DNA from: an uncultured Bacilli bacterium
Lineage (GTDB): Bacteria > Bacillota_I > Bacilli_A > RF39 > UBA660
Reading direction: 5' to 3'
NCBI GenBank assembly: GCA_947627895.1
Contig: CANQXV010000001.1
Span: 3,987-67,986, forward strand
DNA: 64,000 nucleotides
Shown: positions 48,433 to 52,414 of the stretch, piece after piece
Layout: each line of letters starts with the position of its first letter
Position numbering within the stretch: position 1 is the first letter of the stretch
The notes under the pieces: model-generated
Databases searched by the model: none
What the model saw: only the letters and a program-made list of their open reading frames with translations
What the model was told of the DNA's origin: nothing
Made by a program: the position numbers and the translations under genes

Positions 48433-48813
48433 TTATTTGCTAATATAAGATTTACATGATTTATCAATATTTGCATCTTTATTTGGATGTTCGATACATT
48501 CACGGCAAATATCATAATCAGCTCTAACTTCTTCATTGAAACTACCAATTAAAGCAAATATAGCACTAACAATAGTTGGAACGAAGAAAATAATTACCGC
48601 GGAAATAACTCTCCATAATAATTTAGTTGCTGATTTACTAACAGCTTTATCTTCACTTGATACAACTGCCTTTCCTAAATCGACCATTCCTAAAATAATC
48701 AAAACAATAGGTATTACAATCTTAATTACTAACAAAGCGATTCCAACAAATTGCCATAATACGGCCGTTTCTTGACAAAATCCGGCTTGTTCAGTACCAG
48801 GTATTACGTCCAT
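48433..48813 (-). CDS. Small membrane protein, short paralog of the 338-aa TSP3-repeat protein (2-3 TM helices + Cys-containing tail)
   Basis: Its N-terminal two thirds align with the 338-aa protein (LKIV-P-II-GxV-xAV-SSxDK-SK-A-LL...IFF-PTIVSAIF). It is the last gene of the seven-gene operon. Confidence 0.55.
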   Translation of the reverse strand: MDVIPGTEQAGFCQETAVLWQFVGIALLVIKIVIPIVLIILGMVDLGKAVVSSEDKAVSKSATKLLWRVISAVIIFFVPTIVSAIFALIGSFNEEVRADYDICRECIEHPNKDANIDKSCKSYISK

Positions 48814-48904
48814 TAATACATCTCTCCTTCACTTAATATTATTTTATCTTAATTGGCATATTATGTCAACTGATAAATTGTTATTTACACAAGTAAAAAT
48901 TTTG

Positions 48905-49921
48905 CTAATTTCCCGAGTTTGCCGCCAAACATGAATGATCACAAATACCATCATTATTGGTATCACAGTTAATATCACAACTACCACTGGCATTAATGTC
49001 AATATTTAAATCCGGGTACTTATCATTATTAAGATCTTTATTAAGATCCACTACTCCATCACCATCTAAATCAATATTAGTATCCGGCCAATTATCATTA
49101 TCCGAATCACAGTTGACATCACAAATGCCATTACCATCTAAATCTTGATTTAGAGCATTTTTTATTGTTCCGTCACTTTGTAATACGTTAAAAGCTTTAT
49201 TTCTGTTTCCATCAAAGTCAATATTTTGATCAGGTTTATTATCATTATTGGTATCACAGTTAACATCACAAACGCCATCGTTATCCAAATCTATATTTAC
49301 AACTTTATTAACTTTATTTTGGTTATAAATACAATTATAATCACATAAATTATCTTTATTATTATCACAGTTAACATCACAGATACCATCATTATTGGTA
49401 TCAATATTTAAATCTGGATAGCCATCGTTATCAACATCAATATTTAACTCGCCATTATTAGCATCTGGAACCTTGGAAGGATCTTTAACATTATCCCAAT
49501 CAATATCAGGTTTAGTTGCATCATTATCGTAACTTTCATTAGGTGGCATTGGAATAATACCACCATTATAACTAGTATCACAATCATTATAAGGGTTCGT
49601 TAAACAATTAAAACATATTTTAAAGTCAGCACTAAAATCCACAAACATTGAGAACATATTAAAAATCGCACTAACTATAGTTGGAATAAAGAAAATAACT
49701 ATCCCAATAACTAATTTTTTTAATAAACTTGCTCCTTTTTTACTAATAATTTTATCATCACTACTCATAACTGCTTGAGCAAAATTAACAATCCCAATGA
49801 TAATAATTATTAAAGGTACAACAATTTTTAAAACAAAAAATATTAACCCTATTGTATACCAAATTGAAGCCGTCTTATAACAAAAATTGATATCTCCTAA
49901 TAAAGGTTCTACAAAACTCAT
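48905..49921 (-). CDS. Membrane protein with C-terminal tandem Asp-rich calcium-binding-like repeats (thrombospondin type 3 / dockerin-like DxDxDG-x-CDxNCD)
   Basis: It has N-terminal TM helices, then at least six repeats such as IDVDNDGYPDLNIDTNNDGICDVNCDNNKD, IDLDNDGVCDVNCDTNNDNKPD and QDLDGNGICDVNCDSDNDNWPD. Confidence 0.6.
   Translation of the reverse strand: MSFVEPLLGDINFCYKTASIWYTIGLIFFVLKIVVPLIIIIIGIVNFAQAVMSSDDKIISKKGASLLKKLVIGIVIFFIPTIVSAIFNMFSMFVDFSADFKICFNCLTNPYNDCDTSYNGGIIPMPPNESYDNDATKPDIDWDNVKDPSKVPDANNGELNIDVDNDGYPDLNIDTNNDGICDVNCDNNKDNLCDYNCIYNQNKVNKVVNIDLDNDGVCDVNCDTNNDNKPDQNIDFDGNRNKAFNVLQSDGTIKNALNQDLDGNGICDVNCDSDNDNWPDTNIDLDGDGVVDLNKDLNNDKYPDLNIDINASGSCDINCDTNNDGICDHSCLAANSGN
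48917..49456 (-). repeat. Tandem in-frame coding repeats (about 45-60 nt units) encoding the Asp/Cys-rich Ca-loop motifs
   Basis: DNA units such as cacagttaacatcacaaa(c/t)gccat recur at about 48.97, 49.11, 49.25 and 49.37 kb. Confidence 0.6.
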
Positions 49922-49932
49922 AAATCCTCCCT

Positions 49933-50928
49933 TTATTTAAAAACACTAAATAATCCCTTAGTTTCATCACCAGTTCTACTGAATCCTAAAGCTCTTAAAA
50001 AATTATTTAAAACTTCATGATCCGTTACTTTATCATCTACATTAGGGATATTAAAGAATACTTTACTTCCACTTTCTTTTTCAAAATCTTCAATATCTTT
50101 GGAATCTAAAGCACTGCGATTTAAAACAATCTTTTTACCATTTAATTTATCAAAAACATTTTGATCTTTACGAATCATTTTATTTAATTTAGTTAAACCT
50201 GGTTCAATTAAATAAATAACTTCACCTACACCGGCATTATCTTCACTATTTAAATCAACTAAAATAACTTCACAATCACTATGTTCACTAATATATTCAC
50301 TTAATTGCGAAGAACTAATAGAATCTAGACTTTTATCACCAAATAATGCAAAATCTTGGCCATCTACTTCTACTGCTTTTACTTTATAATTTTTGGATAA
50401 ATGTTGTTTCAATAAATAAACTAAAGTCGTAGAACCTGCCCCTTCGGTTAAATTACGAAACCCTATAACTCTTTGACCAATAAAACCACGATTATTATCA
50501 TAAACTTCTTCGTTAAAGATTGGTTTTTCTGATACTCCATTTAATTGGTGATAACTAGCCACATCTTTATAGGTATTAGGATTATCAATTAAAAATTTAA
50601 CAGAATCTATATTTCTCGTAAAATTATAAATTCCCATGGAAACAAGTTGTGATAAATATAAAGGCGAATTAACTTTTTCTGAATCATCTAACAATAAAAT
50701 AATTTTTGATGCATCAAAATTAACTGATAAACTTTGAATAACATTAATATTTTCATAATTTTTAATCGCTGTTATATCAATTATCATTTTATTAAAGTAA
50801 AAATTAGTAAATTGTTCCATCAACTCATCAACACTAAAAACTCCCGTAATATGTTTTATTACATCAATATCTAAATTAGTTAATAGGGTTTGATATTTAT
50901 TCGAAATTATCACATTTATTCCATTCAT
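49933..50928 (-). CDS. TadZ/CpaE-like protein: N-terminal receiver-like domain + ParA/MinD-like domain with a degenerate Walker A (TEGAGSTTL)
   Basis: The N-terminal roughly 120 aa have a CheY-like alternation (KIILLLD...). The central GFRNLTEGAGSTTLVYLL aligns with the ParA-type deviant Walker A xKGGxGKTT but lacks the Lys. Confidence 0.45.
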   Translation of the reverse strand: MNGINVIISNKYQTLLTNLDIDVIKHITGVFSVDELMEQFTNFYFNKMIIDITAIKNYENINVIQSLSVNFDASKIILLLDDSEKVNSPLYLSQLVSMGIYNFTRNIDSVKFLIDNPNTYKDVASYHQLNGVSEKPIFNEEVYDNNRGFIGQRVIGFRNLTEGAGSTTLVYLLKQHLSKNYKVKAVEVDGQDFALFGDKSLDSISSSQLSEYISEHSDCEVILVDLNSEDNAGVGEVIYLIEPGLTKLNKMIRKDQNVFDKLNGKKIVLNRSALDSKDIEDFEKESGSKVFFNIPNVDDKVTDHEVLNNFLRALGFSRTGDETKGLFSVFK

Positions 50929-50938
50929 TTTTATTCTC

Positions 50939-51391
50939 CTAACTTGTTATTCGATTATTACTTCCTACAAAGGCACTAGTTTGACCATCTATTTTAAAAT
51001 TAGTTAAATCGCCTAAAACTGGTAAATTAAATTTATAAAAGAAGCGGATATTATAAAGAACTAATCCATTCGAAGTACTTTTTTCTTGAAAACAATAATA
51101 ATATTCATTACTTGAATTACTTTGTTCAAAAGTCCCATTAAAGTCGATAGCTCCCCACCATTCATTTGGACATTTTCCTTTATCCTTATAACCAGTTGCT
51201 GATAAATAATTATTTAATATTTGGCCCGATTCTGTACTTACACCTTCATATTTTTCAATTACTGATAAAGCTTCATTTTTAATCGCATAAGCTCGGGAAT
51301 AGCTTATTACTAAAGATAAAAAACAAGCAAAAATTAAAATAAAGATAATAATTAATTGAAATGTCCAGGTTGTTCCTATTGTCTCTCTCAT
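50939..51391 (-). CDS. Pseudopilin/TadE-like small secreted membrane-anchored protein (paralog group B)
   Basis: The N-terminus MRETIGTTWTFQLIIIFILIF has a charged start, a Gly and a hydrophobic helix. Its start ATG overlaps the upstream stop (TAATG). Confidence 0.4.
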   Translation of the reverse strand: MRETIGTTWTFQLIIIFILIFACFLSLVISYSRAYAIKNEALSVIEKYEGVSTESGQILNNYLSATGYKDKGKCPNEWWGAIDFNGTFEQSNSSNEYYYCFQEKSTSNGLVLYNIRFFYKFNLPVLGDLTNFKIDGQTSAFVGSNNRITS

Positions 51392-51903: not shown

Positions 51904-51910
51904 TTAATCA

Positions 51911-52150
51911 CTATCCTTTATAAACACAACGGAATGTTCCTTCAACTTCGCTGGCCGTACAAGAGCAATATCCTTCATTTTCATCTCGTACTTCAGCACT
52001 ACAATCACAAGTTGCTCGATTACAATCAGCTTGCTTTTTAAAGTTATTGTGGATCATGGGCCACAAATAACTGAAAAAAAAGGTCGCTAGGACCCCTACA
52101 GATATAATTACAATAACCGTGCTATTTAATTCTCCTGTAGCCTCTTTCAT
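51911..52150 (-). CDS. Flp/minor-pilin-like small protein with a Cys-rich C-terminal tail (paralog group A)
   Basis: MKEATGELNSTVIVIISVGVLATFFFSYLWPMI is followed by an eight-Cys tail. It has an AAGGA SD. Confidence 0.4.
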   Translation of the reverse strand: MKEATGELNSTVIVIISVGVLATFFFSYLWPMIHNNFKKQADCNRATCDCSAEVRDENEGYCSCTASEVEGTFRCVYKG

Positions 52151-52157
52151 TTAGTCC

Positions 52158-52355
52158 TTAATTATTTGATTCATCTGTGGCCATACAAGTATCAATACAT
52201 TCAGTGTCATTATTAGGACATTGTGCTTCACAAGTATTTTTCTTAATACTAGCTTGAATACTTGGCCATACAAATGCATAAAAGAATGCTCCAACTGCAG
52301 CAATAGCCACAACAGTTACAACTGTCATATTTAATTCTCCTGTCGCTTCTTTCAT
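52158..52355 (-). CDS. Flp/minor-pilin-like small protein with a Cys-rich C-terminal tail (paralog group A); first gene of the operon
   Basis: MKEATGELNMTVVTVVAIAAVGAFFYAFVWPSI is followed by a five-Cys tail. It has a strong SD, AAGGAGGA. Confidence 0.4.
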   Translation of the reverse strand: MKEATGELNMTVVTVVAIAAVGAFFYAFVWPSIQASIKKNTCEAQCPNNDTECIDTCMATDESNN

Positions 52356-52385
52356 TTATAGAATCCTCCTTTATAACTATAATTT

Positions 52386-52414
52386 ATTATAGCCGATTTC
52401 CCATTAAATAGCAA
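52386..52414 (-). promoter_or_regulatory. SigA-type promoter TTGCTA-17-TATAAT driving the seven-gene 52355 to 48433 operon
   Basis: The minus strand reads TTGCTAtttaatgggaaatcggcTATAAT, about 30 nt upstream of the first ATG. Confidence 0.55.

What the first reader, a model, noticed from the sequence alone, without database searches (positions are those of the whole stretch)
48433..52414. Compact seven-gene operon resembling an orphan Tad/Flp-like or novel surface-filament module without an ATPase
The operon is driven by TTGCTA-17-TATAAT and its genes have strong SDs and overlapping stop/start (TAATG). In order it encodes two roughly 70-aa proteins (MKEATGELN + one TM + Cys-rich tail), two 150-170-aa proteins (MKESIG/MRETIG + TM + Cys-containing ectodomain), a TadZ/CpaE-like protein whose Walker A lacks the Lys, and two paralogous membrane proteins. 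One of those carries thrombospondin-type-3/dockerin-like Ca-binding repeats. The N-termini (charged start, Gly, hydrophobic helix) recall class III signal peptides of Flp pilins and TadE/TadF pseudopilins but do not match the G/xxxxEY consensus. No TadA/CpaF ATPase, TadB/C platform or prepilin peptidase is nearby. This combination does not correspond to a described system known to me. It could be a degenerate or novel pilus-like or cell-surface assembly system, possibly sporulation- or envelope-associated.
Basis: partly seen in the sequence, partly recalled or inferred. Interest (0 to 1): 0.8.

Follow-up and report, generated by a model that had tools for sequence, protein, structure and literature searches.

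The report
Pilin module of a pilus–secretion machine
The seven genes are real and conserved, but they are not an orphan: they are the filament-subunit part of a large, undescribed gene set in uncultured gut bacteria that joins a Tad-like pilus to a conjugation-type secretion system, part of which lies just upstream in this window.

Summary
The seven minus-strand genes (52355-48433) exist as described. All are under purifying selection and are conserved in at least 80 species of uncultured gut Bacilli.

What they encode:
- Two 65/79-aa pilin-like proteins with an invariant MKEATGELN start.
- Two 170/150-aa proteins with the same kind of leader. One was modelled and has a pilin-like helix-plus-sheet shape.
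- A TadZ/CpaE-fold protein (receiver-like plus ParA-like domain) whose whole family lacks the P-loop lysine.
- Two hairpin membrane proteins of the VirB2-like "T4SS_pilin" family, not generic membrane proteins.

In relatives this block sits inside one co-directional locus of more than 20 kb:
- DUF5411, a CpaB-like protein, a CpaF/VirB11-like ATPase and two polytopic proteins;
- then this module;
- then a VirB6-like protein, a small membrane protein, a split VirB4 and a wall hydrolase.

In this window the type IV secretion (T4SS) part lies 3-11 kb upstream on the same strand, from 55500 to beyond 64000. It comprises VirD4, a lipoprotein, a hydrolase and the split VirB4. The CpaF-like ATPase block is not in the window, and whether it lies elsewhere in the genome could not be tested.

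Verdict: a new variant of known kinds, a composite Tad-like pilus/T4SS.

The parts
52386..52414 (-). promoter-like site TTGCTA-17-TATAAT upstream of the first gene
   Evidence: a pattern match only, not enriched over shuffles
52158..52355 (-). pilin-like protein A (65 aa): leader MKEATG, one hydrophobic helix, tail with 4 Cys
   Evidence: N-terminus invariant across distant relatives; dN/dS 0.21-0.39
51911..52150 (-). pilin-like protein B (79 aa): same leader, tail with 6 Cys
   Evidence: dN/dS 0.11-0.21
51391..51903 (-). minor-pilin-like protein (170 aa): leader MKESIG, helix 3-47, then an alpha/beta head. In some relatives it is fused to a C-terminal M15 peptidoglycan peptidase.
50939..51391 (-). 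minor-pilin-like paralogue (150 aa): leader MRETIG. Its start overlaps the upstream stop (TAATG).
49933..50928 (-). TadZ/CpaE-fold protein (331 aa): receiver-like N-domain, disordered linker 130-149, ParA/MinD-like C-domain with no P-loop lysine
48905..49921 (-). VirB2-like (T4SS_pilin family) two-helix hairpin protein (338 aa) with a C-terminal Asp/Cys-rich repeat region (six DxDxDGxxD motifs)
48433..48813 (-). VirB2-like (T4SS_pilin family) hairpin protein (126 aa) with a Lys/Arg-rich loop between the helices and Cys at both ends
   Evidence: (42 of 61 family members match PF18895, best E 1.6e-7)
48841..48869 (-). possible internal promoter TTGACA-17-TAAAAT in the 91-nt gap before the last gene
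   Evidence: a pattern match only
55500..57725 (-). VirD4-like coupling ATPase (741 aa), CD1115 family
   Evidence: NF045973 295.6 bits, cut-off 250; 79-84% identical in L005-L009 in the same synteny
55167..55418 (-). small conserved gene (84 aa) that follows VirD4 in relatives too
57837..58580 (-). lipoprotein with a C-terminal membrane helix (the likely true start is the MKKGFLL...LSGC lipobox)
   Evidence: same position in L090, L092 and L093
58507..60900 (-). cell-wall hydrolase (797 aa): M23 peptidase plus a lysozyme-like domain
60939..62726 (-). VirB4-like ATPase, C-terminal gene of a split pair (595 aa)
   Evidence: Mbov_0397 family 343 bits; CD1110 family 177 bits; 78-92% identical in relatives; best plasmid homologue only 28% identical
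62728..63294 (-). VirB4-like N-terminal gene of the split pair (188 aa, PF26593 TraC-like)
   Evidence: the split is conserved in all relatives
63269..63592 (-). small two-helix membrane protein (107 aa) always placed before VirB4. It is a VirB3-like candidate by position only.
   Evidence: no family match
63612..64000 (-). 3' end of a gene that runs off the window. In relatives this position holds a 684-856-aa VirB6-like polytopic protein.
   Evidence: (pLS20_p028 and Mbov_0396 families, below cut-off)

Best explanation
**What it is**
The operon is the subunit-and-organiser module of a lineage-specific envelope machine. The machine combines a very divergent Tad-like (type IV filament) pilus with a Gram-positive, conjugation-type type IV secretion system.

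**Shown**
- The seven genes are conserved, under purifying selection and syntenic.
- In relatives the module lies between a CpaB-like / CpaF-VirB11-like ATPase / two-polytopic-protein block and a VirB6-like / split-VirB4 / hydrolase block.
- In this window the T4SS block lies just upstream.
- The 331-aa protein has the TadZ fold but no P-loop lysine.
- The last two proteins belong to the VirB2-like family.

**Inferred**
- The two small proteins are prepilins cut after Gly6 of MKEATG.
- The CpaF-like motor, encoded outside this window, polymerises them into a thin filament that crosses the wall.
- The 170/150-aa proteins prime or cap the filament. In some relatives one of them also brings an M15 wall peptidase.
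- The TadZ-like pseudo-ATPase acts as a scaffold or positioning hub rather than as an enzyme.
- The VirB2-like hairpins sit with both ends outside the cell and display variable Cys-rich or Asp-rich (possibly Ca-binding) ectodomains at the T4SS channel.
- No relaxase was seen near the T4SS, so it probably serves contact-dependent transfer or uptake of DNA or protein rather than spread of a mobile element.
For: - **Conservation.** There are 3827 homologues of the 331-aa protein, all unnamed. 80 species genomes of gut Bacilli/'Tenericutes' MAGs carry the five-gene core. dN/dS is 0.11-0.39.
- **Tad-like context.**
  - In L001-L003 and about 30 other loci the module follows DUF5411, one or two SAF/CpaB-like proteins (TIGR03177 33-35 bits; Pfam SAF 25.8 bits against a cut-off of 21), a T2SSE ATPase and two polytopic proteins.
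  - The ATPase matches CpaF best among PDB sequences (70.7 bits). FlaI scores 62 and VirB11 scores 60.
- **VirB2-like hairpins.**
  - 42 of 61 members match PF18895, with a best E of 1.6e-7.
  - The loop between the helices is rich in Lys/Arg.
  - Loci hold 1-5 copies, with variable ectodomains.
- **T4SS link.**
  - The window holds VirD4 (above the NCBIfam cut-off), a split VirB4 and a hydrolase.
  - The same genes lie directly downstream of the module in 11 genome loci and 12 metagenome loci.
  - On the TadZ-like tree the all-in-one order sits on at least three deep branches.
- **Chromosomal, not mobile.**
  - VirB4 is 77-92% identical within the lineage but at most 28% identical to any plasmid copy.
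  - The flanks are housekeeping genes in stable synteny.
- **Split arrangements occur.** The Tad block stands alone in L168-L172 and in L122/L162/L135.
Against: - No Tad family model reaches its cut-off for any of the seven proteins.
- The Flp G/XXXXEY motif is absent.
- No prepilin peptidase motif was found in the window or in 2.49 Mb of related loci.
- The leaders are not positively charged, so membrane topology is not settled.
- The two polytopic proteins in relatives match no T2SSF model and no PDB sequence.
- The CpaF-like block could not be shown to exist in this genome. It is not within 10 kb upstream of the T4SS in two genomes of the window's clade.
- In many genomes the pilus genes and the T4SS lie apart (L001 versus L093), so functional coupling is inferred from recurrent linkage only.
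Confidence: 0.62

Rival explanations
1. There are two unrelated systems that are merely neighbours. One is a divergent Tad-like adhesion pilus (the first five genes, with a motor elsewhere). The other is a remnant or domesticated conjugative T4SS, to which the last two VirB2-like genes belong.
For: - In the L001 clade the pilus genes have no T4SS within 8-10 kb.
- In L093 the T4SS has no pilus genes nearby.
- One clade has the five-gene core with no hairpin genes.
- Three housekeeping-type genes separate the two blocks in the window.
Against: - The hairpin genes follow the TadZ-like gene in 46 of 80 genome loci, whether or not a T4SS is near.
- The single co-directional super-locus occurs on several deep branches.
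- In the window's clade the module moved but stayed next to the T4SS.
Confidence: 0.22
2. This is a true orphan. In this clade the CpaF-like motor has been lost, and the module works without a T2SSE ATPase. It would either depend on the adjacent VirB4/VirD4 ATPases or act as a static membrane or surface complex.
For: - No T2SSE ATPase is found in the 64 kb.
- None is found within 10 kb of the module or of the T4SS in the clade's relatives.
- The module nonetheless remains under purifying selection.
- The TadZ-like protein is itself catalytically dead.
Against: - Only a small part of the genome was visible.
- Tad blocks that stand alone exist in other genomes, so separation without loss does occur.
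- From established knowledge of type IV filaments, no such pilin is known to assemble without a PilB/CpaF-type motor and a platform protein.
Confidence: 0.1
3. The small proteins are not pilins. They are bitopic membrane proteins, for example Cys-rich metal-binding or accessory subunits of the secretion channel, and no filament is made.
For: - The leaders carry no net positive charge, and Lys residues follow the helix in the 65-aa protein.
- CX3C...CX3C spacing in the 65-aa tail could bind metal (read directly from the sequence).
- No peptidase was found.
Against: - All four proteins share a six-residue leader that ends in Gly or Ser and is conserved far beyond the rest of the sequence.
- They always sit next to a CpaF-like ATPase block in the full loci.
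- The model shows a continuous helix from residue 3 to 47 leading into a beta-sheet head.
Confidence: 0.06

Closest known systems
Tad/Flp (type IVc) pilus systems, e.g. Caulobacter Cpa and Aggregatibacter Tad; Gram-positive versions in Bifidobacterium, Eubacterium rectale (TadZ structure 3FKQ) and Bulleidia (PMC12786226)
   Same: - Short pilins of about 60-80 aa.
- Two larger minor-pilin-like proteins.
- A TadZ/CpaE-fold organiser.
- In relatives, a CpaB-like SAF protein, a CpaF-like ATPase and two polytopic proteins in the same order of functions.
   Different: - No G/XXXXEY motif.
- No family model reaches its cut-off.
- The TadZ-like protein lacks the P-loop lysine as well as the signature lysine.
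- No linked prepilin peptidase.
- Cys-rich pilin tails.
- Linked VirB2-like genes and a T4SS.
- In one clade a separate, canonical Tad operon (TadE-like x2, TadZ with KGGVGKT, 475-aa CpaF, TadB/C) lies nearby and is clearly a different system.
Chromosomal, relaxase-less MPF-FATA-like T4SS of Patescibacteria with arrays of VirB2-like pilins (PMC12102498)
   Same: - A chromosomal, highly conserved VirB4, VirB6 and VirB3-like set with no relaxase seen nearby.
- Arrays of 1-5 divergent PF18895-type hairpin genes.
- Hosts with small genomes.
- Type IV pili reported as a partner function.
   Different: - The host is a Bacilli lineage, not Patescibacteria.
- VirB4 is split into two genes.
- VirD4 and a wall hydrolase are present.
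- The pilus genes are of a Tad-like kind and are fused into the same locus.
Mycoplasma ICE transfer genes (Mbov_0395 pilin-like, Mbov_0396 membrane protein, Mbov_0397 VirB4) and the Clostridioides CD1110/CD1115 families
   Same: These are the best NCBIfam matches for the window's VirB4 (343 bits), VirD4 (295.6 bits, above cut-off) and, weakly, the hairpin proteins.
   Different: - Only VirD4 passes a cut-off.
- No transposase, integrase or relaxase was seen.
- Synteny with housekeeping genes is stable across species, so this is not a typical mobile element.
Conjugation aided by type IV pili: the IncI1 plasmid R64 thin pilus, and the Sulfolobus Ups pili plus Ced DNA import (both as summarised in PMC12102498)
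   Same: A type IV filament and a VirB4-based transfer machine work together, and the filament makes the cell contact.
   Different: Those are separate loci with canonical pilins. Here the two gene sets form one array in many genomes, and nothing has been tested experimentally.
Predicted CpaF/PilC/DUF5411 operons of Roseburia, Ruminococcus and Eubacterium (PMC9523054)
   Same: DUF5411 is linked to a CpaF-type ATPase in gut Firmicutes.
   Different: - The host class and the partner genes differ.
- No TadZ-like pseudo-ATPase, MKEATGELN pilins or T4SS genes were reported there.

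Membership tests
Tad/Flp pilus system (type IVc) | Flp-family pilin with a G/XXXXEY processing motif (Pfam Flp_Fap) | tested here: not met
   No Pfam or NCBIfam match. The mature start would be ELN..., with no EY. 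Only the leader end (K-E-A-T-G) recalls Flp leaders; that comparison rests on my own knowledge.
Tad/Flp pilus system (type IVc) | TadA/CpaF secretion ATPase | tested here: not met
   Absent from the 64-kb window. Relatives have a 370-aa T2SSE ATPase next to the module whose best PDB match is CpaF at 70.7 bits. Its NCBIfam scores for VirB11 (118 bits) and TadA (108 bits) are below cut-off. Presence elsewhere in this genome was not testable.
Tad/Flp pilus system (type IVc) | TadB/TadC platform proteins (T2SSF domain) | tested here: inconclusive
   None in the window. The 301-aa and 262-aa polytopic proteins of relatives match no T2SSF model, no PDB sequence and not each other. By eye their cytoplasmic segments resemble T2SSF repeats.
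Tad/Flp pilus system (type IVc) | TadV/CpaA (A24) prepilin peptidase | tested here: not met
   No G.GD.K motif in the window or in 174 related loci totalling 2.49 Mb. No A24 match among the 20 window ORFs of 141-401 aa that were scanned. The rest of the genome was not testable.
TadZ/CpaE family | N-terminal atypical receiver domain plus C-terminal ParA/MinD-like domain | tested here: met
TadZ/CpaE family | Sequence membership and a nucleotide-binding Walker A | tested here: not met
   Pfam CbiA scores 15.7 bits against a cut-off of 25.4. Comparison with a canonical TadZ gives hhalign probability 24%. The P-loop Lys is replaced by Ala or Ser in the whole family. Only 445 representatives are found among 1.84 billion proteins, so this is a separate narrow family.
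TadE/TadF or type IV minor pilins | Class III leader, a long N-terminal helix packed on a beta-sheet, and a TadE N-terminal motif | tested here: inconclusive
VirB2/TrbC-like T4SS pilins (Pfam PF18895 T4SS_pilin) | Two-helix hairpin with a cytoplasmic basic loop, both ends outside, and a family model match | tested here: met
   42 of 61 family members match PF18895 at E<=0.05, with a best E of 1.6e-7. The window's 126-aa protein itself scores only 15.7 bits against a cut-off of 26.6. The loop carries 4-5 Lys/Arg. No PDB pilin sequence is matched.
Conjugation-type T4SS of monoderm bacteria (MPF-FATA-like) | VirB4 ATPase | tested here: met
   Pfam P-loop_TraG and AAA_10 match. NCBIfam Mbov_0397 scores 343 bits (below its cut-off of 590) and CD1110 scores 177 bits. 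The gene is split into 188-aa and 595-aa ORFs in all relatives.
Conjugation-type T4SS of monoderm bacteria (MPF-FATA-like) | Coupling protein, wall hydrolase and VirB6-like channel protein | tested here: met
   VirD4 matches the CD1115 family at 295.6 bits against a cut-off of 250. An M23-plus-lysozyme hydrolase is present. The VirB6-like gene runs off the window, and in relatives it matches pLS20_p028 and Mbov_0396 only weakly.
Conjugation-type T4SS of monoderm bacteria (MPF-FATA-like) | Relaxase and origin of transfer (needed for conjugation proper) | tested here: inconclusive
   No relaxase or integrase family is flagged within 10 kb in L090, L092 or L093, or among the window ORFs scanned. 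Ten window ORFs and the rest of the genome were not scanned.
Thrombospondin type 3 / dockerin Ca-binding repeats | Match to the repeat family models | tested here: not met
   Six DxDxDGxxD motifs are present, but there is no TSP_3 or dockerin match at E<=1. The resemblance is at motif level only.

The most novel reading that the evidence does not exclude
The Tad-like genes, the VirB2-like hairpin array and the relaxase-less T4SS form one ancestral, chromosomally fixed machine in this small-genome gut lineage. In this reading a thin pilus makes contact and a VirB4/VirD4 channel moves DNA or protein between cells. That would parallel the T4SS-plus-pilus equipment that Patescibacteria need for life on a host cell, and it would suggest that these uncultured Bacilli also live by cell contact. 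In the window's clade the module might even work from the T4SS ATPases alone.
Probability: 0.3. Interest if true: 0.85.

Novelty: new variant of a known kind. Interest (0 to 1): 0.62.

Why it matters
- **Reach.** These uncultured Bacilli appear in MAGs from human, rabbit, chicken and mouse gut samples, and none of the seven proteins has a name in any database searched.
- **VirB2-like genes in a Bacilli T4SS.** T4SSs of Gram-positive bacteria are generally said to lack VirB2-type pilins (PMC12102498). Here a Bacilli lineage has arrays of them, tied to a chromosomal T4SS with no relaxase seen nearby.
- **Fusion of two machine types.** A Tad-like pilus and a T4SS fused in one locus would be a new arrangement of two well-studied machines.
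- **A clue to lifestyle.** It gives a concrete, testable idea of how a small-genome, unculturable gut lineage contacts other cells.
- **New protein families.** The lysine-less TadZ-like family and the MKEATGELN pilins are new sequence families that current annotation models miss.

Tried and rejected
- **Family libraries.** Pfam, NCBIfam and PHROGs scans of the seven proteins gave nothing above cut-off.
- **PDB sequence searches.** The 331-aa protein, the hairpin profile and the two polytopic-protein profiles all gave nothing useful.
- **Finding the rest of this genome.** The source contig (78.6 kb, NCBI) was not retrievable, and only contigs of about 0.7-1.9 kb from the same species came back. 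So the question "is there a CpaF-like ATPase elsewhere?" stays open.
- **Looking upstream of the T4SS.** In the clade's relatives no Tad block lies there.
- **Synteny between stand-alone Tad blocks and the window.** None was found.
- **ATPase hits downstream in one clade.** The hits 5-7 kb downstream turned out to be a separate, canonical Tad operon, not this system's motor.
- **Rejected readings.**
  - Random small ORFs: rejected on conservation and dN/dS.
  - Prophage: no significant PHROG match for six of the seven proteins; the 126-aa protein has only a borderline match (E 0.00096) to a PHROG of unknown function.
  - Plasmid or typical ICE: the best plasmid VirB4 is only 28% identical and the housekeeping synteny is stable.
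  - Sporulation role: SpoVA and sigma genes are 17 kb away and unlinked in relatives.
- **Literature.** Searches for RF39, DUF5411, and Tad combined with T4SS found no description of this system.

Full report
**1. The observation**

The window has about 30% G+C throughout.
- The TTGCTA-17-TATAAT site is at 52414-52386. Such matches are no more frequent here than in shuffled sequence.
- Ribosome-binding sites are clear before four genes, moderate before two, and weak before the 150-aa gene. That gene's start overlaps the preceding stop as TAATG.
- A second promoter-like site, TTGACA-17-TAAAAT, lies in the 91-nt gap before the last gene.

None of the seven proteins reaches the curated cut-off of any Pfam, NCBIfam or PHROG family.

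**2. The genes are real and conserved**

- The 331-aa protein has 3827 homologues in the large protein collection, none with a name or a Pfam domain.
- An exhaustive HMMER search of 1.84 billion cluster representatives finds only 445 of them. It does not spill into the huge ParA/MinD superfamily, so this is a narrow, separate family.
- A scan of one genome per species returned 80 loci (95 stretches were confirmed as encoding a relative). All come from uncultured gut MAGs labelled Bacilli, Tenericutes, "Mycoplasma sp. CAG:776" or Candidatus Caccenecus. NCBI files Ca. Caccenecus under Bacilli incertae sedis. From memory these names belong to GTDB order RF39; I could not check that here.
- All 80 loci keep the five-gene core: two small proteins, two mid-size proteins and the 331-aa protein. 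46 of them also keep one to five copies of the hairpin gene after it.
- Against four relatives of the window's own clade, every one of the seven genes has dN/dS of 0.11-0.39, at dS of about 0.4-1.4. Chance ORFs are excluded.

**3. What the individual proteins are**

*The 331-aa protein.*
- An AlphaFold2 model built on 48 diverse homologues has mean pLDDT 87. It shows two alpha/beta domains joined by a disordered linker at residues 130-149.
- The TadZ/CpaE architecture is therefore confirmed at the level of fold. Sequence relatedness to a canonical TadZ is marginal.
- In all 48 aligned sequences the P-loop reads N-x-T-x-H-A-G-A/S-T-T. Both lysines of the deviant Walker A are missing. I infer a scaffold or positioning role, not catalysis.

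*The small and mid-size proteins.*
- The small proteins start with an invariant MKEATGELN, although their tails are only about 35-65% identical across relatives.
- The mid-size proteins start with M[KR]E[SA][IV][GS].
- A six-residue leader ending in Gly or Ser, followed by a hydrophobic helix, is what a prepilin peptidase substrate looks like. The Flp G/XXXXEY motif is absent, however, and the leader is not basic.
- In one clade the 170-aa homologue carries a C-terminal M15 peptidoglycan peptidase. That suits a structure which must cross the wall.

*The last two proteins.*
- They share a two-helix hairpin with a Lys/Arg-rich connecting loop and Cys residues at both ends.
- 42 of 61 family members match Pfam PF18895 (T4SS_pilin), with a best E of 1.6e-7. 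Four members also match CagC. The window's 126-aa protein also touches the Mycoplasma ICE families Mbov_0395/0396.
- Relatives fuse the same hairpin either to a signal peptide plus a 250-350-aa Cys-rich ectodomain, or, as in the window's 338-aa protein and in L005, to C-terminal Asp-rich repeats.
- The six DxDxDGxxD motifs are real, but no thrombospondin or dockerin model matches them.

**4. Genomic context in relatives: a Tad-like block**

- In L001-L003, and in about thirty other genome loci, the module directly follows five genes. These are a DUF5411 protein, one or two SAF/RcpC (CpaB-like) proteins, a 370-aa T2SSE ATPase and two polytopic proteins of about 300 and 262 aa.
- The ATPase lies between families. 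Its best NCBIfam scores are VirB11 118, TadA-type 108 and TrbB 96 bits, all below cut-off. Its best PDB sequences are CpaF 70.7, FlaI 62 and VirB11 60 bits.
- DUF5411 was previously linked, by a gene-context method, to CpaF/PilC operons of gut Clostridia (PMC9523054).
- None of these five genes is in the window.
- One clade has a canonical Tad operon 3-7 kb downstream of the module: TadE-like x2, a TadZ with KGGVGKT, a 475-aa CpaF, and TadB/C. This operon is only 26% identical at the ATPase and is a different system.

**5.

Upstream of the operon, on the same strand, lie the following:
- a VirD4-like coupling protein at 57725-55500 (CD1115 family, 295.6 bits, cut-off 250);
- a lipoprotein at 58580-57837;
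- a 797-aa M23-plus-lysozyme wall hydrolase at 60900-58507;
- a VirB4-like ATPase split into 595-aa and 188-aa genes at 62726-60939 and 63294-62728;
- a 107-aa membrane protein at 63592-63269;
- the 3' end of a gene that runs off the window.

In relatives that last position holds a 684-856-aa polytopic protein with weak matches to the pLS20_p028 and Mbov_0396 conjugation membrane proteins. Only three genes separate the T4SS from the operon: a VTT/DedA protein, an unknown gene on the other strand, and an M29 aminopeptidase.

**6. The two blocks are linked repeatedly**

- The 107-aa, VirB4-N and VirB4-C genes are 78-83% identical to the window's copies. They lie directly downstream of the module and its hairpin genes, on the same strand, in 11 genome loci and in 12 metagenome loci.
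- In L024, L032, L038 and L080 the whole series forms one uninterrupted co-directional array of more than 20 kb. It runs from a protein of about 1100 aa, through the Tad-like block, the module and the hairpin array, to VirB6-like, VirB4 and the hydrolase.
- On a neighbour-joining tree of the TadZ-like protein this all-in-one form sits on at least three deep branches. It is therefore probably ancestral. The window's clade (T4SS, then module) and the L001 clade (Tad block plus module, with the T4SS elsewhere as in L093) look derived.
- In the window's clade the order VirD4, VTT, x, M29 peptidase, module, murC, dUTPase, Crp-like, NrdD is conserved in L005-L009.

**7. Chromosomal, not a typical mobile element**

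- VirB4 is 77-92% identical across the lineage. The best of 1820 plasmid homologues is 28% identical.
- The flanks are housekeeping genes.
- No relaxase or integrase family is flagged within 10 kb in three contexts.

This matches what has been described for Patescibacteria: a chromosomal, relaxase-less, MPF-FATA-related T4SS with arrays of 2-11 divergent PF18895-type pilins, with type IV pili as a partner function. That paper states that T4SSs of Gram-positive bacteria lack VirB2 homologues (PMC12102498).

**8. Is the CpaF-like motor present in this genome?**

I could not tell.
- It is absent from the 64 kb.
- It is absent within 10 kb of the module in L004-L010.
- It is absent within 10 kb upstream of the T4SS in L090 and L092.

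Tad blocks that stand alone among housekeeping genes do exist in other genomes (L168-L172; L122, L162 and L135 with one hairpin gene). Physical separation without loss therefore occurs, but I could not pair any of them with this genome. No prepilin-peptidase motif was seen in the window or in any of the 174 loci.

**9. Conclusion**

- The Tad-like reading of the first five genes is supported by context and by fold, but not by family membership.
- The last two genes are VirB2-like.
- The operon is one module of a composite Tad-like pilus/T4SS locus that has not been described in the literature I could search.
- The mechanism in the best explanation is inferred by analogy. That covers the processed pilins, the filament driven by a CpaF-like motor, the TadZ-like scaffold and the hairpins at a relaxase-less T4SS.
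- The processing step, the filament and the coupling to the T4SS are all untested.

Noticed in passing
window 60939-63294 (-): The VirB4-like ATPase is encoded as two adjacent genes of 188 aa and 595 aa in different frames. The same split is present in every relative examined, so it looks like a natural two-gene arrangement rather than a frameshift error.
   Followed up: partly
window 39350-46849 (-): A giant 2499-aa surface protein with an M26 (IgA1-protease-type) metallopeptidase C-terminal region and an HExxH site. It sits between murC and the dUTPase gene, where the relatives L007-L009 have no such gene, so it looks like a clade- or strain-specific insertion.
   Followed up: partly
window 22980-25971 (-): An 815-aa protein with five SpaA (prealbumin-like) domains and a thioester domain sits next to a sortase gene. 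This is a sortase-dependent adhesin or pilus, separate from the finding.
   Followed up: no
window 30278-32466 (-): SpoVAD and SpoVAC/SpoVAEB genes lie beside a sigma-70-family factor, so sporulation-type genes occur in a lineage whose MAGs are often labelled Tenericutes or Mycoplasma.
   Followed up: no
window 26019-26717 (-): A ComEA-like protein (SLBB plus helix-hairpin-helix domains), a DNA-binding competence-type receptor. It may bear on the idea that these cells take up DNA.
   Followed up: no
L083 13774-18374 (also L067, L055 and eight other loci): One clade has a second, canonical Tad operon 3-7 kb downstream of the module: two TadE-like proteins, a TadZ with an intact KGGVGKT, a 475-aa CpaF, and TadB and TadC. 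In that clade the module has neither hairpin genes nor its own ATPase block nearby. No Flp pilin gene was looked for there.
   Followed up: partly
L024 12743-15137; L032 11508-13935; L038 13260-14399; L068 5778-6827; L074 12011-13429; L079 12742-14103: These are long versions of the hairpin protein: a signal peptide, then a 250-350-aa Cys-rich ectodomain with no family match, then the two-helix module at the C-terminus. The ectodomains differ strongly between copies and between genomes.
   Followed up: partly
L001 1-531; L080 259-4241; L038 583-3939; L032 153-3755: A 914-1200-aa protein with no family match always precedes the DUF5411 gene. In some loci a 240-aa protein with a weak FlgD Ig-like match comes before it. 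It may be a further component, such as an adhesin or tip protein. It has no homologue in the window.
   Followed up: no
L090 5612-7360: In one genome of the window's clade, a 582-aa FtsK/SpoIIIE-DUF87 ATPase lies directly upstream of the VirB6-like gene. It could be a further DNA translocase of the T4SS cluster. The equivalent position in this genome lies beyond the window end.
   Followed up: no
window 55167-55418 (-): A small 84-aa gene with a weak rhodanese-like match in relatives. It follows VirD4 and precedes the VTT/DedA gene in the window, L090 and L093, so it is conserved in position.
   Followed up: no
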